A stretch of 64,000 nt of DNA. It comes from Eledone cirrhosa (taxonomy: Eukaryota). The notes below the pieces were generated by a model. That model was given only the letters and a program-made list of their open reading frames with translations, did no database searches and was not told the DNA's origin. The stretch lies in contig OZ024746.1 in the NCBI GenBank assembly GCA_964016885.1, positions 53,816,001 to 53,880,000 on the forward strand, in the 5' to 3' direction. Position numbers and translations under genes: made by a program. Numbering within the stretch: position 1 is the stretch's first letter; each line of letters opens with the position of its first letter. Positions 178-50,016 of the stretch are shown here, piece by piece.

Positions 178-183
<6 letters not shown>

Positions 184-712
184 TAATAAAAATAATGAAT
201 AAAAACAAAGAAACAGTTCCTTATATTAAAAAATTCATCATTTTACGATCGTTTCTAGGATATATATGTTTGAGTTGGTATGTATATCATATAGATCTAT
301 GTAAAATTTTTACAAACTATCAGAGGGAATATACATACCTACACATATATATGCTGTCTTCAGAAATAATCATTATTTCTGAAGACAGCATATATATGTG
401 TAGGTATGTATATTCCCTCTGATAGTTTGTAAAAATTTTACATAGATCTATATGATATACATACCAACACAAACATATATATCCTAGAAACGATCGTAAA
501 ATGATGAATTTTTTAATATAAGGAACTGTTTCTTTGTTTTTATTCATTATTTTTATTAATTTATCTTGACTCTGTTTTCCTGTATTTTTCATCGGAAAAA
601 AAAAAAAAAACAACATTTTTGAATACATCTTCTCTTTTCATGATATTCGGATTACATTGAGTTCTTCATACGGATTGGACACTACCGTACATTTTGGTAG
701 ATTTATCTATCT
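178..712. mobile_element. Fold-back (inverted-duplicated) PLE pseudo-LTR-like insertion between (TA)n tracts
   Basis: Near-perfect palindrome ~178-564 centred at 371 (gaaataat-c-attatttc). The right arm continues ~150 bp to the next (TA)n. Each arm carries a hammerhead motif. Confidence 0.75.
370..507 (+). ncRNA. Type I hammerhead ribozyme motif with extended stem II (mirror copy on - strand ~235-372)
   Basis: tcattattt-CTGAAGA(379-385)-~100 nt hairpin-GAAA(487-490)-cgatcg-TA-aaatgatga. Stem I strands pair; loop III is palindromic; the base of stem II is imperfect. Confidence 0.7.
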
Positions 713-2360: not shown

Positions 2361-2407
2361 ATGTATATATATACATATACATATGTGTATATATAAATAT
2401 ATATATA

Positions 2408-2848
2408 TATTAATTCAAAATATTAATAAATGTAGACATACACGTAATCAAAATATATTTTTTATTATATATATTTCGGAGGTACTGTGTTGTTTTTTCA
2501 GTACGTCCTCATCAGATAAAATATATAAATTGATGTATGACATACCTCAACTGTGCTGATGGTTCAATTCCAGTTTTGGCAGCCAATACTGGAATTGAAC
2601 CATCAGCACAGTTGAGGTATGTCATACATCAATTTATATATTTTATCTGATGAGGACGTACTGAAAAAACAGCACAGTACCTCCGAAATATATATAATAA
2701 AAAATATATTTTGATTACGTGTATGTCTACATTTATTAATATTTTGAATTAATATTAATAACTCCAGAAAACTTTTACAGTTGAGTGCTTCTAATCTATT
2801 GTAAAACTATATTAATTGATTAATCAATGAACCTTGTTTAACTTTTGG

Positions 2849-10337: not shown

Positions 10338-13160
10338 AGGGTGGTGTATTGGCAGTATCGGTAGAGCGTCGGACAATATGCATCGAGGCATAGTTATGTC
10401 CTTTTACGTTCTGAGTTCAAAACCTGCCGGGGTTAACTTTACCCTTTATCCTTAAAACCTGCCGGGGTTAACTTTGCCTTTTATCCTTAAAATAAAGTAC
10501 CAGTGATGTACTGGAGTCATTTAATCAACTTTTCCCTCCCCTTCAAATTGCTGGCCTTGTGCCTAAAATAGAAACAATTATTATTATTATTATTGGATTG
10601 GCAGAATCAGTAGAGCGTCGGACAACATGCTTAGTGACACAGAGTTATGTCCCTTTACGTTTTGAGGTCAAAACTCGCCGAGGTTAGCTTTGCCTTTCAT
10701 CTACGGAGTCGATAAAACAAAGTACCATTCACGCACTGCGGTCGATTATAATCGACTTTCCCTCTCCTTCAAATTGCTGGCCTTGTGCCTAAATCAGGAA
10801 CAATTATTATATTGTCATTACGAACTTCCGGTTTGCTGGTAGAAAACTTAAAAACAAACTCATTCCGGCGACCCCCTTTCTTCACACCCCTCACCAAGAT
10901 TTTCCTTCCATCAAAGTCTGCTTGTTGTAGTGGAGGTTGCTTGGAAGGAGATAGGAACAGATGGTTTTGTGAATAATACCTTGAAGAGATTTTCAATAAT
11001 TAGGGAAGGGTGGGATGGGCGCCTAACACACTTCACGGGGTGGTAGTGGTGTTGTGAATAATATTTACAGAAACATGGTGGGGGAGAGACAATTCTAGAG
11101 GGTGTAAAATATGGACCTGGTAGTACTTGATGGGGTTGTAATGATAGAGGTGGTAGTGTCTGAGGTTGTAATGGTGGCGGCGGTGGTGGTGGTGGTGGTG
11201 ATGGTAGTAGTAGTCGAGTTAGTGTTGGTGATGGTGATAGTTGTGATAGTGATATTCTTGCAGATGTTGTCGTTTGAGGTGGTGATGGTTGTGGTGGTTG
11301 TGGTAGTTGTAGAGGTAGAGGTATTGCTGGAAATAGCAGATGGAGGAGTAGTCTTTGTGGTGGCAGTTGAGGTAGTGATGTTGTTGCTGTTGGTAATAGG
11401 TATGCTGGTAGTGGTGGTATTTGAGATAGTGATGTTTGTTTTGGTCTTTGTGATAGTGGCAGTAATAATTGTTTCTACTTTTGGCACACGGCCAACAATT
11501 ACCCAATGTATTACTGGTACTTTATTTTATCGACCCCATAAGGATGAAAAGCAAAGTTAACCTCGGCAGGATTTGAACTCAGAATGGCAAGGGCCGTACC
11601 TCTATGCGTCAAAGGATGGCGTCCGACTCTCTACCGATACTGCCAATCCACCGTCCTGTAGGTTTTAATTTAGGCATTTGGCCAACAATTTGGTGGTAGG
11701 TAGATGTCGATTATATTAACACCAGTACTTTACTGGTATTTTATTGAGTTCAGAAAAGTGAAAAGCAAAGCTAAGTTCGGTAGAATTCGAGCACATATTG
11801 TTAAACCCGGATCTAATATCACTTGGCATTTTACCCGATTCTTCAATGATTTAAGTGATCCACTACTCTGATATACACTTTGATAATTGTTTCTACTTTT
11901 GGCACAAGGTCAACAATTACGCCAGTGTATATTTGGCACTTTATTTTATCGATCCCGTATGGATGAAAGGCAAAGTTAACCATGATGGGATTTGAACTCA
12001 GAACGTAAATGGCCATAATTTTATTCTGCAAATCATGATGTTTGACGCTTTACCAGTACTGCCAATCTATAATAATTTTAAATAATGATTTCTAATTTAG
12101 AAACAAGGTGAGCAGTTTGAGAAGAAGGAAAGTCAGTTATACCGAACTTAGTATTAAAAAAAGTTAAAACTTGCCCCAAGTCATCAGGCTTATCAAGCTA
12201 GTGTTTATCCTAGGTTTCATTTTCACCCGCGTTAAGCGACTGAGAGTACAAAATTCACCCTTGGATCGGACGCCATTCCATCGCAGGTTCACCGTCCCTA
12301 GTACTTCACTGATATTTTATTTTATTGACCCCAGAATCATTAATGACAAATTTGACATCAGAACCTAAAGAGTCGAAATGAATAACCCAAAGCATTTCTT
12401 CCAACACGCTAATCGCTCTGTACATTTTTGTACATTTTATAATTATTTCTACTTTTGGAACAAGGCCAGCAATTACCCAGTGCATTACTGGTACTTTATT
12501 TTATCGACTCCGTAAGGATGAAAGGCAAAGTTAACCTCGACGGGATTTGAACTCAGACCGTAAAGGGACGTAACTATGCTGGAAAGCATGGCGTCCGACC
12601 CTCTACCGATACTGCCAATTCACCACCCTTTATACATTTTATAATGATTTATAATTATTTTTGACGTGTTTCTGTATTCCAGCTGCTAAGAAGCTTGGTT
12701 GGCCGGTTTGAAAATTAGAGCTCTCGTAGTTGGTCATCAAAGGCAATCGGATGTCTGCTCTAAGCTCGGCAACAATATGATGCCGGTGATAGAGCTTACT
12801 AGAACTAGCATATACTTTATAATTGTTTCAGAAGTAGACATAATACCAGCAATTTGAGGGGAGTGGAAAGTAGATTATATAACCCCAAGTACTTCACAGG
12901 TACAATATTTTATCGACCCCAAACGATAGAAGTCAAATATGACCTCAACGCGATTTGAACTCAGATCGTAAGGGGCCGTAACTAAACGCTACAATTCATT
13001 TTGTCCAATGCTCTAACGATCTACCGATACTGCATATCCATCGCCCTCAGTCCATTATAATAATTATTTCTAATTTTAACACAAGGGTAGTAATTTGAAG
13101 GGAAGAGGTAAGCCGATTAAATCGACCTTCTGGACATTACTGGTATATTATTTTATCGAC
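10338..13160. mobile_element. SINE family A copies: ~10338-10590 +, ~10593-10810 +, ~11465-11654 -, ~11885-12068 -, ~12440-12628 -, ~12818-13045 - and older fragments
   Basis: Same A/B boxes, core and gaaacaattatt tail; consecutive copies are joined through (TTA)n. Confidence 0.85.
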
Positions 13161-13429: not shown

Positions 13430-13567
13430 TCAATACTTAGGGTAGTAGAGTGGGTAATAGGAAAAGATATGACCTCGACGGCATGGCTCAAGCCGTTACG
13501 ACGGCTATTTCAGTCCAGAAATAGCCGTCGTAACGGCTTGAGCTCTGCCGTCGTGGTCATACCTTTT

Positions 13568-13572
<5 letters not shown>
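13430..13572. mobile_element. Fold-back half-hammerhead element (sister of 34332-34480)
   Basis: Arms ~13457-13511 and ~13518-13572. Each carries stem II 3' strand-GTAA(for GAAA)-cggc...gccg-TC. Abuts (TA)n. Confidence 0.65.
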
Positions 13573-13600
<28 letters not shown>

Positions 13601-13603
<3 letters not shown>

Positions 13604-14054
13604 CGGAAAAAATGAAACGAAATTTCATTTATCACTCTTAGTACGGCTGTTACTTAAATATAAGTATGTATACGTACATACATATATGTATACAGACGTA
13701 CAGTAGTATGTATATATATATACATACATGCACACATATATATATGTACGTATGGATTCACCGAACATTTATTATAATGCTGGGTGTTCCTTTGTCAGTG
13801 TTGAACAAATGAGCAACGATGGTTGCTAGACACTGTACGGCTTAATTCGGGATGTTTGTTTACAAACACACCGAGCATTATAATAAATGTTCGGTGAATC
13901 CATACGTACATATATATATATATGTGCATGTATGTATATATATATATACATACTACTGTACGTCTGTATACATATATGTATGTACGTGTACATACTTATA
14001 TTTAAGTAACAGCCGTACTAAGAGTGGGAAATGAAATTTCGTTTCATTTTTTCC

Positions 14055-14058
<4 letters not shown>
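13601..14058. mobile_element. Inverted-duplicated copy of the 439-bp hammerhead unit, flanked by (TA)n on both sides
   Basis: 13786-14056 matches 45550-45824; 13602-13787 is an inverted copy of its 3' ~185 bp. Confidence 0.8.
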
Positions 14059-14112
<54 letters not shown>

Positions 14113-14954: not shown

Positions 14955-15662
14955 GGCTGCGCAGGAGCAGGCCCTCAAAACGAAATGGTTGAAACACCAC
15001 ATTTACAAGGAGGAGGCTAGCCCACTGTGCAGGATCTGTGGAGAGAGAGAGGAGACTGTGGCTCACATTGTATCCGAGTGTAAACACCTAGCCCAGACTC
15101 ACTATAAGGGCTGGAGACATGATGTGATGGGCAGGGTGATCCACTGGCACCTATGCAAAGTAAACAATTTACCACATTCTGAGAAGTGGTATGAGCATAA
15201 GCCAAAGGCGGTGATAGAAAACGATCAGGTGAAGGTGCTGTGGGATTTTAGGATACAGACGGACAAGAAACTGGAACACAATAGACCTGACCTGGTGGTT
15301 TTGGACAAAGAAAAAAGATCATGCCTGATTGTGGATGTGGCCTGCCCATTCGACACGAGAGTGCAAGAGAAGGAGAGGGAGAAAATTAACCGATACCAGG
15401 ACTTAAAGTGGGAGGTAAAAAGGATCTGGAACTGCCATGAAGTCAAAGTGATCCCGATTGTCATAGGCGCACTAGGGACTATCTCAAAAAGTTTCCAGGG
15501 ATGGTTAAAGAAAATTGGCCCCTTCACGCTTTTTGGAACGCTTCAAAAGGCATGCTTGCTGGGAACAGCAAGAACCCTCCGATACGTCCTGAATATCTGA
15601 GGCTGCAAGTAGTGGCTTGATATTCATCTCAACAAACTTTCCAGTTAACTAACATCAATGAG
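14953..15662 (+). mobile_element. 5'-truncated R4/Dong-type non-LTR retrotransposon (CCHC finger + REL endonuclease; ORF remnant 14953-15600)
   Basis: AAQEQAL...CRICGEREETVAHIVSEC...RHD...LWDF...RPDLV...IVDVACP...GALG; flanked by (TAA)n on both sides. Confidence 0.9.
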
Positions 15663-15711
15663 TAATAACAATAATAATAATAATTATCATTATTATTACT
15701 ATTATTACTGT

Positions 15712-16299
15712 TGTTTGAGTCTCAGTCATTGATGTTATTTAACTGGAAAGTTTGTTGAAATGAATATCAAGCCGCTTCCTGCAGCCTCAGATATTCAGGA
15801 CGTATCGGAGGGTCCTTGCTGTTCCCAGCAAGCATACCCTTTGAAGTGTTCCAAAAAGCGGAGCTGGACTAATCTTCTTTAACCATCCCTGGAAACTCTT
15901 TGAGATAGTACCTAGTGCTCCTGTGACAATCGGGACGACCTTGATTTCATGGCAGTTCCAAATCCTTTTAAACTCCCACTTTAAATCCTGGTATCGGTTA
16001 ATTTTCTCCCTCTCCTTTTCTTGCACTCTCGTGTCAAATGAGCAGGCTACATCTATAATCAGGTACGATCTTTTTTCCTTGTCCAAAACCACCAGGTCAG
16101 GCCTATTGTGTTCTAATTTCTTGTCCGCCTGTATCCTAAAATCCCATAGCACCTTCACCTGATCGTTTTCTATCACCGTCTCTGGCTTATGCTCATACAA
16201 CTTCTCCGAATGTGGTAAATTGTTTACTTTGCATAGATGCCAGTGGATCACCTGCCTATCACACCATGTCTCCAGCCTTTATAGTGAGTCTGGGCTAGG
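15712..16299 (-). mobile_element. Second 5'-truncated copy of the same Dong-type element (ORF remnant 15787-16251)
   Basis: Near-identical protein (LWDFRIQADKKLEHNRPDL...LRYVLNI) and 3' UTR on the - strand; (TAA)n-type flanks. Confidence 0.9.
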
Positions 16300-16324
16300 T
16301 ATTATTATTATTATTATTGTTTTT

Positions 16325-17978: not shown

Positions 17979-18218
17979 TTATTATTATTATTATTTTTAT
18001 TGAATGCTATGGTTGACGGAGGCTCGGCTCTGTAAGGTATTGTAAATTTTGAACGCTATAACAATTGTAAATTGTTTAAAACTTTAACGAACTTGTAGAC
18101 AAAAACACCCTCCTCCTCGTGAGAGGGGTCTTTCTGCCCGTTATTTGGCCCTTCGGGGTTAAATAACTGCTTATTGGGGTTTTGTACCCAATATTTATTT
18201 TAAACAAAAAAAAACAAC

Positions 18219-19985
18219 ATGGCTACGAAAAAGAAATTTCATAGGTCACTCTCAGTCATTCCGTCTTCTTCTTCCTCAATCATCACTACAGCAGAGAGAA
18301 GATTGTCTCTCTACCTCCCTTCTTTGAATGTGTCTTTCTCCCTCCCTTCTCTTTCGCAAGCGACGAAAGAAAAGAAAAGTCTCGTGCAAAGCGTGCAAGG
18401 TTTCTCCACGACGGCGACGACAGCGACGAAACAGGTCTGCGGGAAATACGAAAACCCCGTTCATTCGTCTGACGTCAGGAATAATAGCAGTAGCAGCCGT
18501 AATAACAACAGCAACAGTGACAATGAAAACAACAGTAGCAGCCGCAACAGCATCACCAGCAGCATAAACAACAACAGCATTAGCAGCAGCAACACCAACA
18601 ACAACCACAGCAACAGCGGCGGAGGCAGTAGTCGTAGTACCTGCAGCAACAACAAAAGTAACAGCAGCTCTGACGACGACAACAACAACAACAGCAGCAA
18701 AGAAAAACCAATCTCATTTGCAGGTATTGCGAAAAACTTGGAAACAATCCTCATAACAAATGAGGAATTAGAGGAAGCGAAGAAGATGGTGACAAAGACA
18801 GGACACCGAGCAATCTGCAAGGTAGCGGAAACATTTTTCGAAACCCAACAGCACTGTACGGTCACGTACCGTACAGTAAGTACAAAATCCCGTAGGGTGG
18901 AAAGAGCCACAGAGGCTCAAATACAAAATGCCTTAGGGTCTATGTGGTAGCGGAAAACGCACATCACCCGAGGAAAAAAATATGCCACCGTAGACGTACT
19001 TTTTGCCACACCCCAGGAGGCAAAGGCCCAATCCGTAGTGACCCTAAGGAGCGAGGAAATGGTGTTGGTGCCCTCCTACTGCGGGCAAAACATTGTGAGG
19101 GTTAAACTGACCCACATCCCCCCCGGGATGGCCCCTTCTTGGCTGGCCGCGTCTGTCCTCGTCGGAATCGAGGACAAAACAACTGTACTGCAAGTACAGA
19201 AAAAAGTAAGAGAAGATTGGGTCGGCACCTCAATTGAGATGCTAATCCAAACCAACCAGGAGTGCATCGAAGCTATCCCGGATGTGATAGACTTCGATAA
19301 CGGCACTCAACTGCCCATAAGTGTTGAGGGAAAACGCCTGAAATGCTTTCGCTGTGGATCGAAGACTCACCTCAGGGCCTTCTGCAACGAGAAGACCCCG
19401 AGAAAGGAGAACCCCCCCCCCCCTCCTTCCGAAACCGGCTCCACGGCTACCAGCAACAGGACAAGCGGCAACCAGGAACGATAGGTCCGTGGCACCCATA
19501 CCCACGCCACGGAAATCAAAAACAGCAGCAGCAGTGGAAATATCAACAACAACAACAGCAATACCAAATGCAGCTGCAACAGAGACTCCAGTGCAAACAT
19601 CACCAACAACAACAAGTGAAAGAGTGGAGCTGGTACCCTCCCCGACCTCACAGAATCAGACATGGAGTGTGAGGTGGGAGAGGGATGGCAAAAGGTCGTA
19701 AGAAGGCACAAACGCAGAAGCAGCGCATCGTCGCCTTTGAAAAGGGAGGAAAGAAATGAGAAAAGGGTAAAGTCTACTGCAAAGAGACCCACAGCAGCAA
19801 CACCACCAACACCATCACCACCCACACTAGCACCACCATCACCACCGGCGACAACCCCACCGCCAACAACACCTTCAACACCACCACCACAAGCATCAAC
19901 ATCGCAAACACAACAACAAAACACACCCACCCAGCAACAACGACAAGAAAATAGCAGAACCACACCCCACCCCCAGAAAAACTAA
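18219..19985 (+). pseudogene. LINE ORF1 (Gag-like, zinc knuckle), disrupted
   Basis: Pieces 18219-18950, 19038-19484, 19354-19701, 19662-19985; CFRCGSKTHLRAFC = CX2CX4HX4C. The stop at 18948 is CAG in copy 2. Confidence 0.8.
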
Positions 19986-20018
19986 TGCACGGCAATAAAT
20001 ACACACAACAAGAAACTA

Positions 20019-20327
20019 ATGACTTACATAATTGAACACACAGACATTTCACAACACGACTACATAATACCAGTACCAATCAAAACGCCAACTAACATAA
20101 GACTGCTAAAAATAGCACAGAAACAACACACAAACATTAAAACGAAATTCCCCAACGCAGTTGGTGATTTCAGGGACCTAGGAGGAACTATCAATCGAAG
20201 AGTATATTCAGACATTGTCATAGAAGAGCCGACGACCAGCCGAAGGGACGATTCAACGGTCCCTTCTCCAGACGATCAAGTGAAAAGGGATGTAAAAACC
20301 ATCCCTCCTCTACCAAAAGTACGGTAA
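20019..20327 (+). CDS. 102-aa ORF between ORF1 and ORF2 (unknown function)
   Basis: Same ATG, length and stop in copy 2 (29814-30122 -), with many synonymous differences. Confidence 0.6.
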   Translation: MTYIIEHTDISQHDYIIPVPIKTPTNIRLLKIAQKQHTNIKTKFPNAVGDFRDLGGTINRRVYSDIVIEEPTTSRRDDSTVPSPDDQVKRDVKTIPPLPKVR

Positions 20328-20362
20328 GTGGTCTTTCCCATCTTTTCCACTCTATTTTAAAC

Positions 20363-23300
20363 ATGACCTCACTCAGAATAGGCAGCATAAATGCGCGTGG
20401 CTTGGGGTCGTCATGGAAGCAGGGTCACCTGCTCAACGACCTCAGGTCACTAAACATAGATGTAGTGGCCATCAGCGAGACCAAAATCTCCGAAGCACGG
20501 GCCTTCACACCGATCTTCGGCGGCTACAATGTGTACGCATCTCCCAGCCGTCTTGGATCGGGTGGAGGAGTTGCTGTGCTTTTTCGGAGAGGTTTGGATC
20601 TCGCCATACGGGCCATCTTCCTGGACCCAGAGGGTAAGCTGGTGGTGCTGGACGTGACCAGCGGAGAAGGGCAAGCTTTCAGGCTAGTGGCCGTCTATGC
20701 CCCGACAGGAGCAGGGCGGCCTGATTTCTTCCGGCGTCTGGAGACCTTTCTTGGAACGTCCCGCTCTTTAGTGTTAGTGGGCGACTGGAACAGGATCTTA
20801 GATGCACGCTGGGACTGTGTGGGATTAGCGGATAGGGGTGGAGGGTGCAAGAGCCTCACCAACCTGCTCAGGCGTTTTGAACTGTCTGACAGGTACCGAT
20901 TGGATTTCCCGAATGTGCCAATGTGGACTTGGACAAATCGCATAGGGTCATCCAGATCATATCTAGATAGAGTAATTTGTAGGGAAGTAGATAGGTCTAG
21001 CATAGGCTGTCCACAATTCAAGATAGTCAGCTACACGGACCACAAATTCGTGATCTGTGTGCTTGACTTAGATAGGCTTCATAGACGAGGACCCGGCTAC
21101 TGGAAGCTAAACGCGTCCTTACCAGCGCACAAGGCCTACAGAGACCGGATTAGCGAACTAGTTAAGCGGGCGTTGACGGGGGCCATCGTCAACAACAGGT
21201 GGTGGTTTGCTCTGAAAAGAGCGATTAGAATAGAATCGATTAGGTTTAGTAAGGCTTTAGCAATAGAGAAAAATAGAGCAGAGGGAGAACTAGTTAGAAA
21301 ATTAGACGAGGCGCTTAGCAAAGGCATTGCGACCGACGTGCTTGCGGCGAAATTGGCCCTTGACCAATTCTTCAATGCAAAGCACGAAGGCTGCGTTGTC
21401 AGAGCAAGGGTGCGTGCTCTCAGATACGAGGGGACGAAAGCCGTTCAATGGGCCCGAGTGGCGGAGGCGCGTCGTGGCAACAAAGCCACGATCCGGTCTT
21501 TGGTGGACCACGACGGGCGCATGCTACTCGATCCCGGGAAAATGTGTGAAGCTTTTCAGCGACACTTCGCTCAGCTGTTCGGAGGCAGCGGTGGGCCGGG
21601 TCGAGGGATGGACTTTAGTGTCTACCTCGACGGACTGACGCGGCTCTTGGCCACTGAGGCGGAGTGTTGCGAAAAGCCGATAGCAGCCGCTGAAGTAAGG
21701 GAGGCAATGACTGGCTGCACAAGGGGTAAATCGCCTGGTTTGGATGGTCTGCCCTATGAACTTTACGTACAGATGCCAGACTTGTTCGGAGGCCTCTTGG
21801 CGGACGTCTACTGCAACTGGCAACAGAACGGGAGAATTCCCAGTTCTGTGAGCCGAGGAGCGGTGGCAGTGCTGAGAAAGGATCCAAACAAGGGGGATAA
21901 CATAGATAATTTCTAGCCCATAACTCTGCTAAACACAGAGTTCAAGATTTTGGCCAAGGAGCTAGCAAAGAGGTTGGCGCTTGTCGTTGGTGGTCTGGTG
22001 GGAGAGGCGCAGACATGAGCCATTCCCGACAGATCCATCCACGACAACCTCCACCTCATGCGATACATCATAGAGAGGGTAGCTAAGGAACCTGGCACGG
22101 GTGGGTCCTTGATCAATTTAGATCAGTCGAAAGCTTTCGATAGAGTCGACCATCGTTACCTAGCGGCAGTCCTGAGGGCGGCTGGCTTTGGTTCCGTCTT
22201 CAGAGGCTGGATCGCTGCCATGCACAGCGACATCTGCTCTGTGGTGAGAGTGAACGGTCACCTGTCGGAACCGTTCAACATCATGCGCTCGGTCCGCCAA
22301 GGATGTCCCCTCTCGTCCCTCTTGTACGTATTGACTCTCGAGCCATTACTGCACAAACTGGAGACGTTGAGGGGCGTGCCGCGCGAACTAGGATGCGGAA
22401 GATCCGTGTCAGCATATGCCGACGATGTCACCGTAGTTGTGTCGAACGCCAAACACATCGAGGCGATCGGCACTACACTAAGAGAATACGAAGCGGTGAC
22501 AGGAGCAATGATCAACCAGGAAAAGTCAGTGGGCCTGCAGCTCGGCACCTGGAGAGGCAGGTCCATGCCGTCCAACAGCGTCGTCGGGCGCTGGACGGAC
22601 GGACCGGTTAAATTGCTAGGGGTCTGGTTCGGTCCGGACCTCCAGACGGACAAAAACTGGGACGAGGTGACGAGCAGGGTGGCTTCTCTCACCCAGAAAT
22701 GAGCGGAGAGGAAGCTATCCCTGAAAGGTCGAGCGGAGGTGGCTAACGCGTACATCGCGTCTGTCATCTGCTACCGCCTGACCGTCGTACCTTGTCCTAA
22801 GCCTCGCCTGACTGCGCTAGAGCGTTTGCTCTTTCGCTTTTTGTGGAAGGGACGTGCTCCGATGGTCAGGCGGTCCATCTGTTGTCAACACCCGCTACGT
22901 GGAGGGCTGGGCATGCCGTGGCTGATGATGCGCAGGCACGCGCTCAGGCTACGACATCTCCACCTCTTCCTCGACGGTGATCAGGTGTGGTCGCCGTTTG
23001 CTAGACACGTATTTCCCCAGCTCGTTTCCTTGACGGAGCTGCAGTCCTGGGTCAAGCGAAGACCGAGAGGGAGCGCCTGGAGACTGGAATGTCTTCAGGC
23101 GCTCACAGCCCTCGACCAATCGGGCAATGTGATCGGTGGAAACTCCACCTCGGCGTTCTATAGAGGATTAGTGGAGGGGAAGAGCGACGACGTACTTGGG
23201 GAAACTCTAGGCGTCGACGAAAATCAACTAGCCAATCTCTTCGGAAGAACTTTCGGGCCGGGGCTTATGGACAACTTCCAGAAATCCCTGGCCTGGCAGT

Positions 23301-23782
23301 GCTACCGAGGAACTTTGCCAGTTCGGGATAAACTCTACAGGCATGGAGGTGCCGTCAGCCGGGCATGTCCGAGATGCGCGCAGGGCGACGAAACCGTCCT
23401 GCACACACTCGTCCAGTGTCCGAAAATTGCTGACTTGTGGGTTTATGTCGAACACCTGCTGTCGCGTTTAGGACGGATCCGGCTATCATCTGAGTCCATC
23501 GTGAGGATTTCCCCGCCCTCCTCCTTTAGCCGGGAAGGGCAGGCAGTTTTTATCTGTCTGGTGGCCATGGTGAAAGAGATAGTATGGTGGACACGTTTGA
23601 AAGGGCTGAAGACGAGCACTTACCTCTTCGGTGATGCTCTGATTGACTTTTTCAAATTTCATTTGAAAAGGAAAATCAGAGTAGAGAGGGAAGTGCTCTC
23701 TTCCCAGCATTTTGTTGAAAGATGGGTGAGAGAAGCAAGAATGGCCCGAGTGAATGGGCCTACTCTGAGTATATATCTGTAA
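20363..23782 (+). pseudogene. LINE ORF2 (AP endonuclease + reverse transcriptase + CCHC finger), one frame with three nonsense codons
   Basis: SINARGL, VYAP, GDWN, YLDR, TDH; KSPGLDG, DQSKAFDRV, RQGCPLS, YADD; CPRC..ETVLH...C. Stops at ~21914, ~22017 and ~22700. Confidence 0.92.
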
Positions 23783-24043
23783 ATTAAAGGTAGAAAACTG
23801 GGAGAGGGCACTTGCCTTGGTGGTCAGGGTCATTGTGGCTTTTTACTGGGCTTTCTCCACAAATGTCCCTCCGAAGTCTCCCCCCTATTGGGGAATTTAT
23901 CATTGTTATTTTTTGTTACATCCTCTGTTTTTGTTTTTTTACACGCAGAAATGCCCATTTGTACCGTCCTGCATTGTCCTGCACTGTCCTTAATGTCTAC
24001 TTTATGTAAACCCTTGTGGTTAATAAAGAAATCATTATTATTA

Positions 24044-24074
<31 letters not shown>

Positions 24075-25554
24075 ACGATCTGAGTTCAAATCCCGCCGAG
24101 GTTGACTTTGCCTTTCTTCCTTACGGGGTCGATAAAATAAAGTACCAGTAATGCACCGGGTAATTGCTGCCCTTGTGCCTAAAGTAGAAGCAATTATTAT
24201 TATTAATATTATACACATATGTATGTATTTATACGCATATATATATATGCGTATATATATATATATATATGCATATATATTTAACTTCGAATTAATTTCA
24301 GCTTGACCGGAGGGTTTACACGCATTAAATAATTAGTGCACACAAGTAACACACATATACACACATATATATGTATGTGTGTGTGTGCATATTATTTAAT
24401 ATATGTAAAACTTATGGTCAATTCAAAGCCAATTCGAAGGTTGAATGAAAGTTATATATGTATGCATATAAATATGGGTATGAAATATCTATAAATATAT
24501 AGATATAATATATATATGTATGTGAATGCATATATGTATTTGTATATATGTGTTTATATGCATGTGTATATATGTATGTATATTTATATATACAAATATA
24601 TATACAAAGAGAGTGAGAGAGACAGTGAGAGTGAAAGAGGAAGAAAGAGAGAGAGAGAGAAGGAGAGGGAGAGAAAGAGAGAGAGGGGGGGGGAGAAAGA
24701 GAGAGAGAGAGAGAGAGATAGGAGATAGATAATTGTTTCTACTTTAGGCACAAGGCCAGCAATTACTCAGTGCATTACTGGTACTTTATTTTATCGACCC
24801 CGTAAGGATGAAAGGCAAAGTCAACCTCGGCGGGATTTGAACTCAGATCGTAAAGGTACGTAACTATGCTGGAAAGCATGGCGTCCGACTCTCTACCGAT
24901 ACTGCCAATCCACCGTAGATAATGATAATTAATGATAGATTGCGTTTTGTATAGAGAGTAGCAATAATATGGAGTAACGTTTAGAGGTTATTTATCTCTC
25001 TAAAATCAATGTATCTGCCCCAGATTCTCTCCTTATATATCCATCAATATAGACACTTGTTCTATGACTATGCACCCCCGGGACCCCAAATCGTTGTAAC
25101 ATTGGAATTCTAAACTCTATATATTTCATAAGTGATACTTTAACTTCTTGAAAAGATATTGGGATGTGTGGTGGTGGTGTTGGTGGTCGTGGTGGTGTTA
25201 GTGGTGGTGGCGTTGGTGGTAGTGTGGTTATGATGGTAGTAGTGGTGGTGGTGGTGGTGTTGGTGATGGTGGTGGTGGTGTTGGTGGTGGTGGTAGAATA
25301 TGTGTGTTTGTAACGAATGTACATTAATAGATATAATTGTTTATATATATATATATATATGTTATATATATGTCTGTGTGTGTGTGCGCATATGTGTGCG
25401 CACGTGTTTGTGAATATGTGTGCGTGTGTATGTTTGTGTGAATGCTTCTTATATATCTATATCAATATCGATACATGTATGTAAAAGTATATATATATAT
25501 ACATAAATCAACTGCCTTCTAGTTGAGAGATGTTTAGGTTACATCCCATTGTCT

Positions 25555-25826: not shown

Positions 25827-26107
25827 TAACGATAATTATTATTTCTACTTTTGGCACAAGGCCGGCAATTATCCCAGTGCATTACTGGTACTTTATTTTA
25901 TCGACCTCGTAAGGATGAAAGGAAAAGTTAACCTCGGCGGGATTTGAACTCAGATCACAAAGGGCCGTACCTCTTTGCTGCAAATAATAATATAGTAATA
26001 ATTGTTTCTATTTTAGGCACAAGGCCAGCAATTAACCAGTACATTACTGGTACTTTATTTTATCGAGCCCGTAAGGATGAAAGGCAAAGTTAACCTCGGC
26101 GGGATTT
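24075..26107. mobile_element. SINE family A copies in the spacer between the LINEs: ~24075-24205 +, ~24729-24915 -, ~25834-25983 -, ~25998-26107 -
   Basis: Match to the family A core and tail. Confidence 0.85.
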
Positions 26108-26118
26108 ATAGTAATAAT

Positions 26119-29100
26119 GCTTTCTTTATTAACCACAAATGTTTACATAAAGTAGACATTAAGGACAGTACAGGACAATACAGGACGGTACAAATGGGCA
26201 TATCTGCGTGTAAAAAAACAAAAATAGAGGATGTAATAAAAAAATAACAATGAAAAATTCCCCAATAAGGGGGAGACTTCCGAGGGACATTTGTGGAGAA
26301 AGCCCATTAAAAAGCCACAGTGACCCTGACCACCAGGGCAAGTGCCCTCTCCCAGTTTTCCACCTTTAATTTACAGACACATACTCAGAGTGGGTCCATT
26401 CACTCGGGCCATACTTGCTTCTCTCACCCATCTTTCAACAAAATGTTGGTAAGAGGGCACTTCCCTCTCTACCCTGATTTTCCTTTTCAAATGAAATTTG
26501 AAAAAGTTAATCAGGGCATCACCGAAGTGGTAAGTGCTCGTCTTCAGCCCTTTCAAACGTGTCCACCATACTATCTCTTTCGCCATGGCCACCAGACAGA
26601 TAAAAACTGCCTGCCCTTCCCGGCTAAAGGAAGAGGGCGGGGCAATCCTCACGATGGACTCAGTTGATAGCTGGATCCGTGCCACACGCGACAGCAGGTG
26701 TTCGACATAAACCCACAAGTCAGCAATTTTCGGACACTGGACGAGTGTGTGCAGAACGGTTTCGTCGCCCTGCGCGCATCTCGGACATGCCCGGCTGACG
26801 GCACTTCCATGCCTGTAGAGTTTATCCCGAACTGGCAAAGTTCCTCGGTAGCACTGCCAGGCCAGGGATTTCTGGAAGTTGTCCATAAGCCCCGGCCCGA
26901 ATGTTCTTCCGAAGAGATTGGCTAGTTGATTTTCGTCGACGCCTAGAGTTTCTGCAAGTACGGCGTCGCTCTTCCCCTCCACTAATCCTCTATAGAACGC
27001 CAAGGTGGAGTTTCCACCGATCACATTGCCCGATTGGCCGAGTGCTGTGAGCGCCTGAAGACATTCCAGTCTCCAAGCGCTCCTTCTCGGTCTTCGCTTG
27101 ACCCAGGACTGCAGCTCCGTCAGGGAGACGAGCTGGGGAAAGACGCATCTAGCAAACGGCGACCACACCTGATCACCGTCGAGGAAAAGGTGGAGATGTC
27201 GTAGCCTGAGCGCGTGTCTGCGCATCATCAGCCACGGCATTCCCAGCCCTCCACGTAGCGGGTGTTGACAACAGATGGACCGCCTGACCATCGGAGCGCG
27301 TCCCTTCCACAAAAAAGCGAAAGAGCAAACGCTCCAGGCGGGGCTTAGGACAAGGTACGACGGTCAGGCGGTAGCAGATGACGGACGCGATGTACGCGTT
27401 CGCCACCTCCGCTCGACCTTTCAGGGATAGCTTCCTCTCCGCCCATTTCTGGGTGAGAGAAGCCACCCTGCTCGTCACCTTGTCTCAGTTTTTGTCCGTC
27501 TGAAGGTCCGGACCGAAACAGACCTCGAGCAATTTAACCGTCCGTCCGTCCAGCGCCCGACGACGCTGTTGGGCGGCATGGACCTGACTCTCCAGGTGCC
27601 GTGCTGCAGGCCCACTGACTTTTCCTGGTTGATCATTGCTCCTGTCACCGCTTCCTATTCTCTTAGTGTAGAGCCGATCACCTCGATGTGTTTGGCTTTC
27701 GACACCACTACGGTGACATCGTCCGCATATGCTGACACGGATCTTCCGCATCCTAGTTCGCGCGGGACGCCGCTCAACGATTCCAGTTTGTGCAGTAATG
27801 GCTCGAGAGTGAATATGTACAAGAGGGAGGAGAGGGGACATCCTTCGCGGACCGAGTGCATGATGTTGAACGGTTCCGAAAGGTGACCGTTCACTCTCAC
27901 CACAGAGCAGATGTCGCTGTGCATGGCAGCGATCCAACTTCTGAAGACGGTCTCAAAGCCAGCCGCCTTCAGGACTGCCGCTAGGTAACGATGGTCGACC
28001 CTATCGAAAGCTTTCGACTGATCTAAATTGATCAAGGACCCACCCGTGCCAGGTTCCCTAGCTACCCTCTCTACGATGTATCGCATGAGGTGGAGGTTGT
28101 CGTGGATGGATCTGTCGGGCTTGGTGCACGTCTGCGCCTCTCCCACCAGGCCACCAATGACAAGCGCCAACCTATTTGCTAGCACCTTGGCCAAAATCTT
28201 GAACTCTGTGTTTAGCAGAGTTATGGGCCTGAAATTATCTATGTTATTCCTCTTGTTTGGGTCCTTTCTCAGCAGCGCCACCGCTCCTCGTCTCACAGAG
28301 CTGGGAATTCTCCCGTTCTGTTGCCAGTTGAAGTAGACGTCTGCCAAGAGGCCTCCGAACAAGTCTGGCATCTGTACGTAAAGTTCATAGGCAAACCATC
28401 CAAACCAGGCGATTTACCCCTTGTGCAGTCAGTCATTGCCTCCCATATTTCAGCGGCTGTTATCGGCTTTTCGCAACACTCCGCCTCAGTGGCCAAGAGC
28501 CGCGTCAGTCCGTCGAGGTAGACACTAAAGTCCATCCCTCGACCCGGCCCACCGCTGCCCCCGAACAGCTGTGCGAAGTGTCGCTGAAAAGCTTCACACA
28601 TTTTCCCGGATCGAGTAGCATGCGCCCGTCGTGGTCCACCAAAGACCGGATCGAGGCTGTGTTGCCACGACGCGTCTCCGCCACTCGGGCCCATTGAACG
28701 GCTTTCGTCCCTTCGTGTCTGAGAGCACGCACCCTAGCTCTGACAACGCAGCCTTCGTGCTTTGCATTGAAGAATTGGTCAAGGGCCAATTTCACCGCAA
28801 GTACGTCGGTCGCGATGCCTTTGCTAAGAGCCTCGACTAATTTTCTAACTAGTTCTCCCTCTGCTCTATTTTTCTCTATTGCTAAAGCCTTACTAAACCT
28901 AATGGACTCTATTCTAATCGCTCTTTTCAGAGCAAACCACCACTTGTTGTTGACGATGGCCCCCGTCAACGCCTGCTTAACAAGTTCGCTAATCCGGTCT
29001 CTGTAGGCCTTGCGCGCTGGTAAGGACGCGTTTAGCTTCCAGTAGCCTGGTCCTCGTCTATGAAGCCTATCTAAGTCATGCACACAGATCACGAATTTGT

Positions 29101-31512
29101 GGTCCGTGTAGTTGACTATCTTGATTTGTGGACAGCCTATGCTAGACCTATTTATTTCCCGACAAAATAACCTATCTAGATATGATCTGGATGACCCTAT
29201 GCGGTTTGTCCAAGTCCACATTGGCATATTCGGGAAATCCAATCGGTAACTGTCAGACAGTTCAAAACGCCTGAGCAGGTTGGTGAGGCTCTTGCACCCT
29301 CCTCCCCTATCTGCTAATTCCACACAGTCCCAGCGTGCATCTAAGATCCAGTTCCAGTCGCCCACTAACACTAAAGAGCGGGACGTTCCTAGAAAGGTCT
29401 CCAGACGCCGGAAGAAATCAGGCCGCCCTGCTCCTGTCGGGGCATAGACGGCCACTAACCTGAAAGCTTGCCTGTCTCCGCTGGTCACGTCCAGCACCAC
29501 CAAGTTACCTTCTGAGTCCAGGAAGATGGCCCGTATGGCGAGATCCAAACCTCTCCAAAAAAGCACAGTAACTCCTCTCCCCGATCCAGGACGGCTGGAA
29601 GATGCGTACACATCGTAGCCGCCGAAGATCAGTGCGGAGGCCCGTGCTACGGAGATTCTGGTCCCGCTGATGGCCACTACATCTATGTTTAGTGACCTAA
29701 GGTCGTTGAGCAGGAGGCCCTGCTTCCATGACGACCCCAAGCCACGCGCATTTAAGCTGCCTATTCTGAGTGAGGTCATGTTGAAATGGAGTGGAAAAGA
29801 TGGGAAAGACCACTTACCTTACTTCTCGTAGAGGAAGGATGGTTTCTCCATCCCTTTTCACTTGATCGTCTGGTGAAGGGACCGTTGAATCGTCCCTTCG
29901 GCAGGTCGTCGGCTCTTCTGTGAGTATATCCGAATATACTCTCCGGTTGAGTGTCCCTCCTAGGTCTCTGAAATCACCAACTGTGTTGGGGAATTTCGTT
30001 TTAATGTTTGTGTATTGCTTCTGTGCTATTCTTACCAGTCTTATGTTCGTTGGTGTTTTGATTGGTGCTGGTATTATGTAGTCGTGCGGTGAAATGTCTG
30101 TGTGTTCAATTATGTAAGTCATTAGTTTCTTGTTGTGTGTATTTATTGCTGTGCATTAGTTTTTCTGGGGGTGGGGTGTGGTTCTGCTATTTTCTTGTCG
30201 TTGTTGCAGGGTGTGTGTTTTGTTGTGTTTGCGATGTTGGTGCTTGTGGTGCTGGTGTTGAAGGTGTTGTTGTTGTTTGGAGTGGGGTTGCTGCCGGTGG
30301 TGATGGTGGTGCTAGTGTGGGTGGTGATGGTGTTGGTGTTGTTGCTGCTGTAGGTCTCTTTGCAGTAGCCTTTACCCTTTTTTCATTTCTTTCCTCCCTT
30401 TTCAAAGGCGACGATACGCTGCTTCTGCGTTTGTGCCTTCTTGTGACCTTTTGCCATACTCTCCCACCTCACACACCATGTCCGATTCTGTGAGGTCGGG
30501 GAGGGATACCAGCTCCACTCTTTCACTTGTTGTTGTTGGTGATGTTTGCAGTGGAGTCTCTGTTGCAGCTGCAGTTGGTATTGCTGTTGTTGTTGTTAAT
30601 ACTTCCACTGCTGCTGCTGTTCTTGATTTCCGTGGCGTGGGTATGGGTGCCACGGACCTATCCTTCCTGGTTGCCGCCTGTCCTGTTGCTGGTAGTGGAG
30701 CCGGTTTCGGAAGGAGGGGGCTTTTCTCCTTTCTCAGAGTCTTCTCATTGCAGAAGGCCCTGAGGTGAGTCTTCGATCCACAGCGAAAGCATTTCAGGCG
30801 TTTGCCCTCAACACTTATGGGCAGTTGAGTGCCGTTATCGAAGTCTATCACATCCGGGATAGCTTCGATGTACCTCTGGTTGGTTTGGATTAACATCTCA
30901 ATGGAGGTGCCGACCCAATCTTCTCGTACTTTTTTCTGTACTTGCAGTACAGTTGTTTTGTCCGCGAAGGGGCCATCCCGGGGCGGGGGGAACGACGACG
31001 ACGTGGGTCAGTTTGACCCTCACAATTTTTGTCTGCAGTAGGAGGGCACCAACAGCATTTCCTCGCTCCTTAGGGTCACTAATGATTGAGCCTTTGCCTC
31101 CCGTCGTGTGGCAAAAAGCACGTCCACGGTGGCATATTTCTTGCCTCGGGTGATATGCGTTTTCCGCTGCCACACAGACCCCAAGGCTTTTTGTATTTGA
31201 GCCTCTGTGGCTCTTTCAACCCTACGGGATTTTGTGCTTACTGTACGGTACGTGACCGTACATTGCTGTTGGGTTTCGAAAAATTTTTCTGCTGCCTTTC
31301 AGATTGCTCGGTGTCCGGTTTTCGTCACCATCTTCTTTGCTTCCTGTAATTCCTCATATGTTATAAGGATGGTTTCAGGTTCTTTGCGATACTTGCAAAC
31401 GAGATTGCTTTTTCTTTCTTGTTGTTGTTGTAGTCGTCGTCAGAGCTGCTGTTACCTTTGTTGTTACTGCTGTTACTACGATTGCCGCCGCCGCTGTTGC
31501 TGTGGTTGTTGG

Positions 31513-31567
<55 letters not shown>

Positions 31568-32163
31568 TATGCTGCTGCTGATGCTGTTGGGGCTGCTACT
31601 AGTGTTTTCCTTGTCACTGTTGCTGCTGCTGCTGTTATTACGGCTGCTACTGCTATTATTCATGACGTCAGACGAACGAAATGGCTTTCCGTATTTACCG
31701 CACGAATTTTTCGTCGTTGTCGTCGTCGTGGAGAAATGTTCCACGTTTTGCACGTGCTCTTGAAAAATATCAGAAACTATATTTTTATTTTTATTTACTG
31801 GCGTCGCTTGCGAAAGAGAAGGGAGGGAGAGATACATATTTAGAGAAGGGAGGGAGAGAGACAATCTTCTCTCTGATGTAGTGACGATTGAGGAAGAAGA
31901 AGACGGAATGAGTGGGAGTGACTTGTGAAAATTCTTTTTTGTAGCCATGTTTCTTTTTGGTTTAAAATGAATATTGGGCACAAAACCCCAATAAGCGGTT
32001 ATTTAACCCCGAAGGGCCAAATAACGGACGGAAAGGCCCCTCTCACGAGGAGGAGGGTGTTTTTATCTACAATTTGGTTAAAGTTTTAAAGAATTTACAA
32101 TTGTTATAGCGGTTAAAAATTACTGTACCTTACAGAGCCGAGCCTCCGTCAACCATGGCATTC

Positions 32164-32164
<1 letters not shown>
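26119..32164 (-). mobile_element. Near full-length L1/Tx1-clade LINE, copy 2 (frameshifted)
   Basis: Reverse-complement homolog of 18001-24033 along its length. ORF1 starts ~31948; ORF2 is 29779-26371 in several frames. Confidence 0.92.
29814..30122 (-). CDS. 102-aa inter-ORF ORF, copy 2
   Basis: MTYIIEHTDISPHDYIIPAPIK... colinear with 20019-20327. Confidence 0.6.
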   Translation of the reverse strand: MTYIIEHTDISPHDYIIPAPIKTPTNIRLVRIAQKQYTNIKTKFPNTVGDFRDLGGTLNRRVYSDILTEEPTTCRRDDSTVPSPDDQVKRDGETILPLREVR

Positions 32165-32209
<45 letters not shown>

Positions 32210-34267: not shown

Positions 34268-34314
<47 letters not shown>

Positions 34315-34331
34315 GAGAGAGAGAGAGAGAG

Positions 34332-34480
34332 AGGAAAAAGTATGACCCCGACGGCACAGCTCAAGCCGTTTCGACGGCTATTTCTGGCTATTTCTGGAAT
34401 AGCCGTCGAAACGGCTTGAGCTCTGCCGTCGGGGTCATACTTTTTCCTATTTCTCACTCTACTACAATCCCTAAACTGTA
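34332..34480. mobile_element. Fold-back half-hammerhead element
   Basis: Arms 34332-34384 and 34396-34448; gaatagccgtc-GAAA(34408)-cggc ttgagctct gccg-TC-ggggtcatac; no CUGAnGA. Confidence 0.65.
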
Positions 34481-45090: not shown

Positions 45091-45289
45091 GCATTTCGGC
45101 GGGTAGAAATTAGCGAAACACAACTTCTGTATTGTGCAGACAAGCGCTCCATGGATATGAAGACACCAGAGCTATAAACATAAGTTAAAATGCTCATACA
45201 CACTGAGACGATGGTTAAGAAGCCATTAACCACCGTAGCCAAAAAAGCGAACAAGCTAAACGGGTCAAACAAAATAGAATATGATTGAA

Positions 45290-45826
45290 ACGTCTGTATA
45301 CATATATGTAAGTACGTATACATACTTATATTTAAGTAACAGCCGTACTAAGAGTGAGAAATGAAATTTCGTTTCATTTTTTCCGCTTATCGTTTTCGGT
45401 ACCCCCGACCGATTAACTCACTGGATATGCAAATTAGGCTGTTCAACCGTTAATATGCATAAGGAAAGTATATACTTTCAGACGTTCAACCATCTGGCAG
45501 GAAGGTATACGTTGCTGACGATAGCTAATAAGCTTGAAACTAGTACAGCGTTCCTTTGTCAGTGTTGAACAAATGAGCAACGATGGTTACTAGACGGCTT
45601 AATTCGGGATGTTTGTTTACAAACACACCGAGCATTATAATAAATGTTCGGTGAATCCATACGTACATATATATATGTGTGCATGTATGTATATATGTAT
45701 ATATATATATATATATGCATACTACTGTACGTCTGTATACATATATGTATGTACGTATACATGCTTATATTTAAGTAACAGCCGTACTAAGAGTGAGAAA
45801 TGAAATCTCGTTTCATTTTTTCCGTT
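45290..45826 (+). mobile_element. ORF-less hammerhead monomer, 439-bp period, 96-bp terminal direct repeats
   Basis: 45290-45385 closely matches 45729-45824; hammerhead in the middle; ends in (TA)n. Confidence 0.75.
45509..45551 (+). ncRNA. Minimal type I hammerhead ribozyme
   Basis: acgttg-CTGACGA(45515-45521)-t agct aata agct t-GAAA(45536-45539)-ctag-TA-cagcgt. Predicted cleavage after 45545. Confidence 0.85.
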
Positions 45827-45846
45827 TATATATATATATATATATA

Positions 45847-49176: not shown

Positions 49177-49710
49177 CTGGTCCCTGGACTGCTGGTCTCT
49201 GGACTGCTGGTCCCTGGACTGCTGGTCTCTGGACTGCTGGTCCCTGGACTGCTGGTCCCTGGACTGCTGGTCTCTGGACTGCTGGTCCCTGGACTGCTGG
49301 TCTCTGGACTGCTGGTCCCTGGACTGCTGGTCTCTGGACTGCTGGTCCCTGGACTGCTGGTCCCTGGACTGCTGGTCTCTGGACTGCTGGTCCCTGGACT
49401 GCTGGTCTCTGGACTGCTCGTCCCTGGACTGCTGGTCTCTGGACTGCTGGTCCCTGGACTGCTGGTCTCTGGACTGCTGGTCCCTGGACTGCTGGTCTCT
49501 GGACTGCTGGTCCCTGGACTGCTGGTCTCTGGACTGCTGGTCCCTGGACTGCTGGTCTCTGGACTGCTGGTCCCTGGACTGCTGGTCTCTGGACTGCTGG
49601 TCCCTGGACTGCTGGTCTCTGGACTGCTGGTCCCTGGACTGCTGGTCTCTGGACTGCTGGTCTCTGGACTGCTGGTCTCTGGACTGCTGGTCCCTGGACT
49701 GCTGGTCTCT
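49177..49710. repeat. 15-bp minisatellite (ctggtcYctggactg) x ~35
   Basis: Highly homogeneous; C/T variants mostly alternate, giving a 30-bp higher-order period. Confidence 0.97.
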
Positions 49711-50016
49711 GTCGCCAAATCGAGCGGAAGGCATCACACACGAGGTAGGAGCCCGGGAGGTGGAATAGTTGATGCCGTATATATCGCTGTCTGTTCTCTG
49801 CTCAAATGTTTTCGCTATCTTGTCCGTGGGGTGCAGCTTTAATCGTCGAACGATGTGTGTGTATGTGTGTGTGTGTACACATATACACACATTATCTATG
49901 CCGTGATATAGATTATAGTTATTATATAGTGATCGAAAACTATGATAGTCCTTTGCATTGGGAAACACACGCTTCAACTTTCAAATGTATCGCCATGCTT
50001 CCCGAATCAACCGCTT

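What the first reader, a model, noticed from the sequence alone, without database searches (positions are those of the whole stretch)
13601..14058. Copy whose 5' end falls 4 nt from the predicted ribozyme cut site
The + arm starts at gttcctttgtcagtg (13786), which corresponds to 45550 in the complete unit; the hammerhead there is predicted to cut after 45545 (UA/cagcgttcc). This is what insertion of a self-cleaved RNA would leave, so it may be a genomic record of in vivo cleavage. The junction with the inverted arm uses a 2-nt GT microhomology.
Basis: partly seen in the sequence, partly recalled or inferred. Interest (0 to 1): 0.75.

Follow-up and report, generated by a model that had tools for sequence, protein, structure and literature searches.

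The report
Two-armed retrozyme copy near ribozyme cut
This is one back-to-back copy of a small non-coding jumping element with a predicted self-cutting RNA; its start near the predicted cut is likely chance, since copies of its family start all along that stretch, but a younger sister family shows a threefold jump in starts just past its own predicted cut, which may be a footprint of the ribozyme.

Summary
Observation confirmed: 13601-14058 is a head-to-head pair of 5'-truncated arms in a (TA)n tract; the + arm starts 4-6 nt past the predicted hammerhead cut, joined by a 2-nt GT overlap. The element is a ~430-nt non-coding unit (at least 2,345 arms) with a covarying type I hammerhead and Penelope-like insertion marks. 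The decisive test fails for this family: 76 sampled 5' ends are flat across the cut (chi-square p=0.98; 3 at the cut, 1.6 expected), so at most ~1.4% of arms stop there. Only a weak step remains (1.3-1.75x; p=0.009-0.16). The single copy is therefore no record of cleavage. However, a younger 468-nt sister family shows a clear step at its own predicted cut (1.1 to 3.15 ends per nt, p=2e-6), with stuttered copying 6-7 nt downstream; cleavage and stalling on the folded helix are not separated. In 81 of 86 two-armed inserts one arm uses each of two fixed 3' start sites; this copy is the only long/long exception. The scan noted a similar offset pattern on another genome (e1-9589730). Verdict: new member of a known kind.

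The parts
13601..13787 (-). Inverted 5'-truncated arm (unit positions about 241-424), ending at the long 3' site
13786..14058 (+). Forward 5'-truncated arm (unit positions 159/161-427), starts 4-6 nt past the predicted cut, ends at the long 3' site; has no hammerhead core
13786..13787 (.). 2-nt GT overlap shared by both arms (head-to-head junction)
   Evidence: sequence; gap -2
13570..13600 (.). (TA)n target tract, left
14058..14110 (.). (TA)n target tract, right
14002..14058 (+). About 59-nt optional tail between the short (unit 366-371) and long (unit 424-427) 3' end sites
   Evidence: 96 ends at unit 368, 19 at 371, 82 at 427
45290..45829 (+). Second copy in the window: partial tandem (101-nt truncated unit plus one full unit), long 3' end in (TA)n
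45509..45551 (+). Predicted type I hammerhead: helix I 45509-14/45546-51, core 45515-21 and 45536-39, helix II 45523-26/45531-34 over a U-U mismatch, palindromic helix III 45539-44; predicted cut after 45545
45484..45570 (+). Predicted long extension of helix I that encloses the hammerhead
   Evidence: z=-2.5 for 45480-45580; weaker for a wider stretch (z=-1.7)

Best explanation
The 13601-14058 insert is a head-to-head, two-armed copy of a ~430-nt non-coding tandem element with a predicted type I hammerhead, likely moved by a Penelope-like reverse transcriptase/endonuclease in trans, and its + arm most likely starts 4-6 nt from the predicted cut through ordinary incomplete copying and microhomology joining, not through run-off at a cleaved RNA end. 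Shown: the arms, the (TA)n target, two fixed 3' end sites 59 nt apart, scattered 5' ends, one short and one long 3' end in nearly all two-armed inserts, and shared variants between arms of one insert. Inferred: the enzyme nicks both strands of the (TA)n tract, starts one cDNA at each of the two internal sites of one multimeric or circular RNA, both cDNAs stop early at near-random places, and the two ends are joined head to head through 1-9 shared bases or a short filler. The hammerhead region is likely a mild barrier in this family and a stronger one in the sister family.
For: Flat ends: 76 ends over unit 120-167, mean 1.58 per nt, 3 at the cut, 10 in the 6 nt from the cut against 9.5 expected. 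Merged with 32 further ends read by eye: 3 at the cut against 2.5 expected. Sample not chosen by 5' end: 3 of 101 arms stop within unit 153-160. Upper bound on arms that stop at the cut about 1.4% (rests on a computed filter pass rate). Positive control: the same loci give sharp 3' end peaks. A near-identical junction (unit 159 joined to inverted unit 238) recurs at L174, which points to microhomology choice. Short/long pairing 81 of 86 (p=1e-18) and 40 of 41 in the sister family. Rare variants are matched in 90 of 1,282 calls between opposite arms and 94 of 1,048 between tandem units, against 6,470 of 635,366 between loci. In vitro a Penelope-like protein cut and extended both strands, started at two internal RNA sites, and did not need hammerhead cleavage (PMC11167929).
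Against: The merged family-1 set has 43 ends in 13 nt from the cut downstream against 34 in 18 nt upstream (p=0.0096, window chosen after seeing the data; best change points 154-160), and a dip at unit 140-151 (9 against 19 expected, p=0.004 post hoc). Partner arms in L001-L116 show 1 end in unit 130-154 and 5 in 155-174 (3.2 expected, p=0.23). The sister family has a clear step at its cut, and its step does not differ significantly from family 1's (Fisher p=0.075). No autonomous partner was found, so the mobilising enzyme is inferred. This copy has two long ends, which the one-RNA-two-sites model does not explain.
Confidence: 0.72

Rival explanations
1. A minority of templates are self-cleaved linear RNAs. 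Reverse transcriptase nears the 5'-OH end, lets go or stutters 4-10 nt short of it, or the cDNA end is trimmed on joining; this copy would be one such product.
For: Sister family: 28 ends in 25 nt upstream against 63 in 20 nt downstream of the cut, p=1.6e-6, best change points v90 and v92 (cut product starts at v92); still 20 against 45 after removing AT-repeat flanks and fold-back pairs, p=5e-5; not explained by filter pass rate or microhomology supply. Five ends carry repeats of v99-103. L283 has three junctions at v92, one a clean loss of the ribozyme core up to the cut; L376 has inverted pieces ending exactly at v92. Family 1 leans the same way. R2 elements give a precedent for cleavage site shaping 5' junctions (PMC3774820, abstract).
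Against: No spike at the exact cut in either family. In family 1 the density at unit 120-136 (31 ends in 17 nt) equals that at 155-167 (25 in 13 nt; input). The sister subfamily with the GUC triplet shows no stronger step (6 downstream, 5 upstream; small numbers). The core-deleted junction was found once among 14 candidates scored. Hammerhead mutants did not change insertion in vitro and no RNA reads ended at the cut for an anole element (PMC11167929).
Confidence: 0.13
2. The folded helix I, not cleavage, stalls the enzyme. The cut lies by anatomy at the top of the helix's 3' strand, so stalling while unwinding it would raise ends just downstream of the cut and lower them just upstream; this copy would be a stall product.
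For: The sister family has the more stable helix (-45.1 kcal/mol, z=-4.5, against -30.6, z=-1.7) and the stronger step. The excess is a plateau over at least 20 nt (36 ends in v92-101, 27 in v102-111), inside the predicted 3' strand v92-121.
Against: Exact v92 joints at L283 and L376 fit a hard template end better. Density beyond v111 was not measured directly. In family 1 the excess is not established.
Confidence: 0.12
3. The palindrome arose after insertion (fold-back repair, gene conversion or assembly error) from a single arm, so the junction says nothing about the RNA.
For: It is the only long/long pair among 86 classifiable inserts.
Against: The arms differ at 5 substitutions and 2 small gaps over 190 columns, as for old independent arms; 83 nt of the + arm have no mirror; the head-to-head form is the rule in the family (127 junctions).
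Confidence: 0.03

Closest known systems
Animal non-LTR retrozymes (Cervera and de la Pena 2020, PMC7229834: passages and part 3 of 6 read; Li, Clavereau, Pollet preprint 10.64898/2026.07.22.740005: part 1 of 5 and passages read)
   Same: Short non-coding tandem unit, one type I hammerhead per unit, low GC, thousands of copies, short palindromic helix III; a U-U mismatch at the base of helix II is reported for axolotl HHR_Amex2.
   Different: Unit is a little longer (427-433 nt; sister 468) than the 170-400 nt described; circular RNA not shown here. The passages I read do not describe head-to-head arms or two fixed 3' sites for retrozymes.
Endonuclease-bearing Penelope-like elements (PMC8557442 and PMC3846280: passages; PMC4209133: part 1 of 4; PMC11167929: parts 1-2 of 4)
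   Same: Partial tandems, adjacent inverted 5'-truncated copy, optional tail usually at one end only, AT-rich or (TA)n targets, hammerhead in the repeat, two internal start sites, microhomology at 5' junctions.
   Different: No RT-GIY-YIG ORF in the unit; tail is about 59 nt (69 in the sister family) rather than 30-40; no autonomous partner found.
R2 retrotransposon with a 5' HDV-like ribozyme (PMC3774820: abstract and outline only)
   Same: Precedent that a ribozyme cut defines the template's 5' end and shapes genomic 5' junctions, with chance microhomology priming where the cut is at the element's end.
   Different: Here the cut lies inside a tandem unit, about 99% of family-1 passes read through it, and there is no sharp class of junctions at the cut.

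Membership tests
Type I hammerhead ribozyme | Core CUGANGA, GAAA and NUH in type I order | tested here: met
   Invariant in 4 aligned sequences from both families apart from N7 and H17
Type I hammerhead ribozyme | Helices I-III with covariation | tested here: met
   47 of 48 cells paired, 5 of 12 pairs change on both sides, slid controls 25-41%; only three lineages, and family 1 has U-U where the sister has G-C at the base of helix II
Type I hammerhead ribozyme | Match to a curated Rfam hammerhead model | tested here: not met
   No hit at gathering score and none among 10 hits to E=10; minimal forms were defined by descriptor in PMC4209133, so this weighs little
Type I hammerhead ribozyme | Self-cleavage at the predicted site | not testable with these tools
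   Needs an in vitro assay
Non-LTR retrozyme | Non-coding tandem repeats with a hammerhead in each unit | tested here: met
   L003 holds three units with three motifs; no unit-derived long ORF; sister arrays of many identical units
Non-LTR retrozyme | Expressed as circular and linear monomer RNA | not testable with these tools
   No usable RNA run (see Tried and rejected)
Penelope-like element (autonomous) | Single ORF with RT and GIY-YIG endonuclease | tested here: not met
   No such ORF in or continuous with the unit in 214 loci scanned; so it works like a PLE passenger but is not filed as an autonomous PLE
Penelope-like element (insertion signature) | Partial tandem plus inverted 5'-truncated copy | tested here: met
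   127 head-to-head junctions in L001-L214 and the window
Penelope-like element (insertion signature) | Optional tail at one end, from two start sites | tested here: met
   Two 3' end peaks 59 nt apart; 81 of 86 short/long pairs; length exceeds the published 30-40 nt
Non-autonomous derivative of a PLE | Homology to the pLTR of an autonomous element in the same genome | tested here: inconclusive
   Only flanks of fetched loci were scanned; no genome-wide protein search was run
Element whose 5' end is set by ribozyme cleavage (R2-like) | Excess of 5' junctions at the cut | tested here: not met
   Family 1: 3 of 76 at the cut, 1.6 expected. Sister family: step but no spike

The most novel reading that the evidence does not exclude
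Retrozyme insertions keep a genomic footprint of in vivo hammerhead cleavage: in the younger sister family about 3% of passes (roughly 175 arms) stop or stutter in the 20 nt just inside the cut because the template ends there, family 1 does the same more weakly because its ribozyme is weaker, and each two-armed insert is made by one enzyme dimer from one RNA using one start site per target strand.
Probability: 0.33. Interest if true: 0.65.

Novelty: new member of a known kind. Interest (0 to 1): 0.4.

Why it matters
What the hammerhead does in Penelope-like elements and animal retrozymes is open: PMC8557442 calls its function unclear and PMC11167929 found cleavage unnecessary in vitro. The single copy does not bear on this. 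The family-wide counts do: they bound cleaved-template run-off at about 1% of arms in this family, show a measurable step at the cut in a sister family, and put a number (94-98%) on the short/long pairing of the two arms. Both give sharp predictions for an in vitro Penelope-type reaction. I found no paper that maps 5' ends against the hammerhead cut in genomic copies (searches, judged mostly from listings; supplements were not read and subscription papers are not held).

Tried and rejected
Rfam: nothing at gathering score, only AT-repeat microRNA noise at E up to 10. RNA evidence: no RNA holder listed; this is no evidence either way. Contigs laid cannot show ends; they listed no variant in the core nucleotides, with frequent changes at N7, loop II and both sides of one helix I pair (not phased). 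The repeat finder was swamped by microsatellites. Gapped extension overran into inverted arms across the AT-palindromic stretch at unit 262-345, so ends there are unreliable and an ungapped call was used near the cut. The pattern had two letters that were not true exclusions, so it let many 1-nt-deletion read-throughs pass; its rows were read by eye, not by script. The partner-arm hazard (p=0.001 for unit 155-174) was contaminated by arms chosen for their 5' end and is rejected; the corrected figures are p=0.23 (L001-L116, 65 arms) and p=0.024 (partners of chosen arms, 69 arms, coupled through fold-back pairs). The first pair count used a misregistered structure and one wrong row; alignments A1 and A2 each had a wrong row; redone. 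My hammerhead scan of the window missed even the known motif and is uninformative. Autonomous partner: ORFs with PLE-like motifs beside arms at L002, L077, L093 lie on the opposite strand, share no DNA likeness with the unit and differ from one another, so they are not taken as the partner. Subfamily test of GUC against GUU triplets was inconclusive. A target-site duplication cannot be read inside (TA)n. The organism was not identified; one search term was a guess from repeat style.

Full report
The observation. The stretch 13601-14058 is two 5'-truncated arms of one repeat joined head to head inside a (TA)n tract. The + arm aligns from window 45550 and the - arm from 45625; G13786-T13787 fits both, so the + arm starts 4-6 nt past the predicted cut after A45545. 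I number the unit from window 45391 using the natural second unit of L003 (427 nt): the first base after the cut is u155 and this arm starts at u159-161.

The ribozyme. The core and three helices are present. A pattern search for the same core with another helix II found a sister family, 5,457 matches against 9 for the reversed control, with a 468-nt unit that is 71% alike over the 167-column tail region. Across four sequences of the two families the core is invariant but for N7 and H17, 47 of 48 helix cells pair and 5 of 12 pairs change on both sides. Helix III is a six-base palindrome, the form that works as a dimer in PMC4209133 (part 1 of 4 read). Family 1 has U-U at the base of helix II, as in a weak axolotl motif (PMC7229834, part 3 of 6). 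Cleavage itself is untested.

The family. A 27-nt motif just past the cut occurs 2,345 times. I fetched the first 100 places. The 3' ends fall at two sharp sites 59 nt apart (96 at u368, 19 at u371, 82 at u427), mostly into (AT)n. Of 127 head-to-head junctions, 125 were away from locus edges and 86 had both 3' ends classifiable: 81 short/long, 4 short/short, 1 long/long, the last being this copy (a few duplicated loci remain in the count). The sister family gives 40 short/long of 41 classifiable, out of 48. Arms of one insert share rare variants 7 times more often than different loci do, which shows a common source lineage but not a single molecule. These marks match the Penelope-like signature (PMC8557442, PMC3846280, passages), and the two sites match the two internal start sites shown in vitro (PMC11167929, parts 1-2 of 4). 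The unit has no long ORF and I found no autonomous partner in the flanks.

The decisive test in family 1. In the sample not chosen by 5' end, 3 of 101 arms stop within u153-160. To sample ends genome-wide I searched for the downstream motif preceded, 49-58 nt upstream, by non-consensus letters: 146 matches, 100 listed and all fetched. Of 101 rows (with the window copy) I dropped 14 internal indels or jumps, 5 duplicates, 5 rows at the filter boundary u119 and the finding itself, leaving 76 ends over u120-167. They are flat: mean 1.58 per nt, chi-square p=0.98, 3 at u155, 8 at u152-155 (6.3 expected), 10 at u155-160 (9.5 expected). A second pattern (128 matches, 100 listed, read by eye) added 32 new ends; the merged 77 over u137-167 give p=0.26 and 3 at the cut. 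Scaled up, at most about 1.4% of arms stop at the cut. Against my reading: the merged set has more ends downstream than upstream of the cut (3.3 against 1.9 per nt, p=0.0096, post hoc), the first set alone gives p=0.07-0.16, and there is a dip at u140-151 (p=0.004, post hoc). Unchosen partner arms lean the same way without significance. So there is no spike, and at most a weak step.

The sister family as a replicate. The same design gave 137 matches, 100 listed; I skipped 6 that were read-throughs by eye, scored 94, and dropped 2 outside the window and 1 duplicate. The 91 ends are not uniform (p=0.002): 28 in the 25 nt upstream of the cut, 63 in the 20 nt downstream (p=1.6e-6), with best change points v90 and v92, where v92 is the first base after the cut. 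One of the 63 (L283, v99) is an internal stutter, not a true end. The step holds without AT-repeat flanks and fold-back pairs (20 against 45, p=5e-5), and simulated pass rates and microhomology supply are equal or lower downstream. The exact cut is not a spike (4 ends); v98-102 holds 22. Five rows carry one to six extra copies of v99-103, as if the enzyme stalled and slipped back. L283 has three joints at v92, one a clean loss of the core; this junction was unique among 14 candidates scored. L376 shows stutter and inverted pieces ending exactly at v92. One array has identical units in both arms (10 units read, one sequence), as a circular monomer template or a very young insertion would give. 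Two causes fit the step: a cut template end, or stalling on the helix whose 3' strand begins at the cut and which is more stable in this family. I could not separate them; the GUC subfamily showed no stronger step.

Mechanism. Shown: arms, target, end distributions, pairing of 3' sites. Inferred: a Penelope-type enzyme in trans nicks both strands of (TA)n, primes one cDNA at each start site on a multimeric or circular RNA, both stop early, and the ends are joined through short overlaps (58 of 127 junctions overlap by 1-9 nt, 49 have filler). Read-through of the cut does not show that the ribozyme is idle, since a religated circle is read through as well. For this copy I put chance truncation at about 0.72, a cleaved template at 0.13 and helix stalling at 0.12.

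Earlier notes. None lay near this place. Note e1-9589730, on another genome, reports the same form with no excess at the exact cut and an excess 6-8 nt further on; I saw it after my counts, and it is an unchecked AI note. It agrees with the sister-family pattern and is not counted as evidence.

Verdict. Observation confirmed; interpretation not supported for this copy and only weakly for its family, but partly borne out in a sister family. New member of a known kind; interest 0.4.

Noticed in passing
L245-L376 (G000, many contigs); unit numbering from L272:505: Sister 468-nt hammerhead family, 5,457 core matches, younger, with a threefold step in 5' ends at its predicted cut and stuttered copying at +6 to +7.
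   Followed up: yes
L262-L274 (G000:C1:30.83-30.84 Mb): Head-to-head arrays of at least 7 and at least 13 units; the 10 units read are identical across both arms, as rolling-circle copying of one monomer would give.
   Followed up: partly
L283 and L376: Units with the hammerhead core lost exactly up to the cut, and stutter plus fold-back pieces ending exactly at the cut; the v92/v101 junction recurs at L371 on another contig.
   Followed up: partly
window 13601-14058: Only long/long pair among 86 classifiable two-armed inserts; unexplained.
   Followed up: partly
G000:C4:100269244 and C4:170406378 (rows): Two family-1 copies share a 7-nt deletion spanning the predicted cut; another at C2:83771740 lacks the whole hammerhead.
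   Followed up: no
L077:1914-2790 and L093:178-1113: Family-1 arms joined head to head, with no (TA)n between, to ends of unrelated elements with GIY-YIG-like ORFs (weak Pfam hit for L077, E=9e-4); possibly mixed-template inserts.
   Followed up: partly
window 2407-2755: Near-perfect 349-nt palindrome in an AT tract; by eye each arm carries a minimal hammerhead core with a long helix II, likely another Penelope-type head-to-head insert.
   Followed up: no
window 178-564: Near-perfect 387-nt palindrome beside (AT)n.
   Followed up: no
window 17979-24212 and 25984-32186: 6.3-kb inverted pair, 91% alike, each with an AP-endonuclease (PF03372) and RT-like frames: two LINE copies facing each other.
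   Followed up: partly
window 15083-16303: 1.2-kb palindrome (89%) within LINE-like coding sequence.
   Followed up: no
window 13457-13570: 114-nt fold-back element with terminal inverted repeats (MITE-like) directly left of the (TA)n target; a relative lies at 34280-34465.
   Followed up: no
window 11465-11650, 12439-12624, 24729-24914 and about ten more: About 190-nt dispersed repeat often beside (AAT)n; ARAGORN finds no tRNA in the window.
   Followed up: no
window 45091-45190; L099, L112: Another repeat sits just upstream of single-armed family-1 copies at three loci.
   Followed up: partly
window 62781-63998 (-) and 37723-38382 (-): 406-aa and 220-aa open frames that look RT-like by eye but have no Pfam hit at 1e-3.
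   Followed up: partly
window 49177-49711: 15-nt tandem array, about 36 copies, 93% matched.
   Followed up: no
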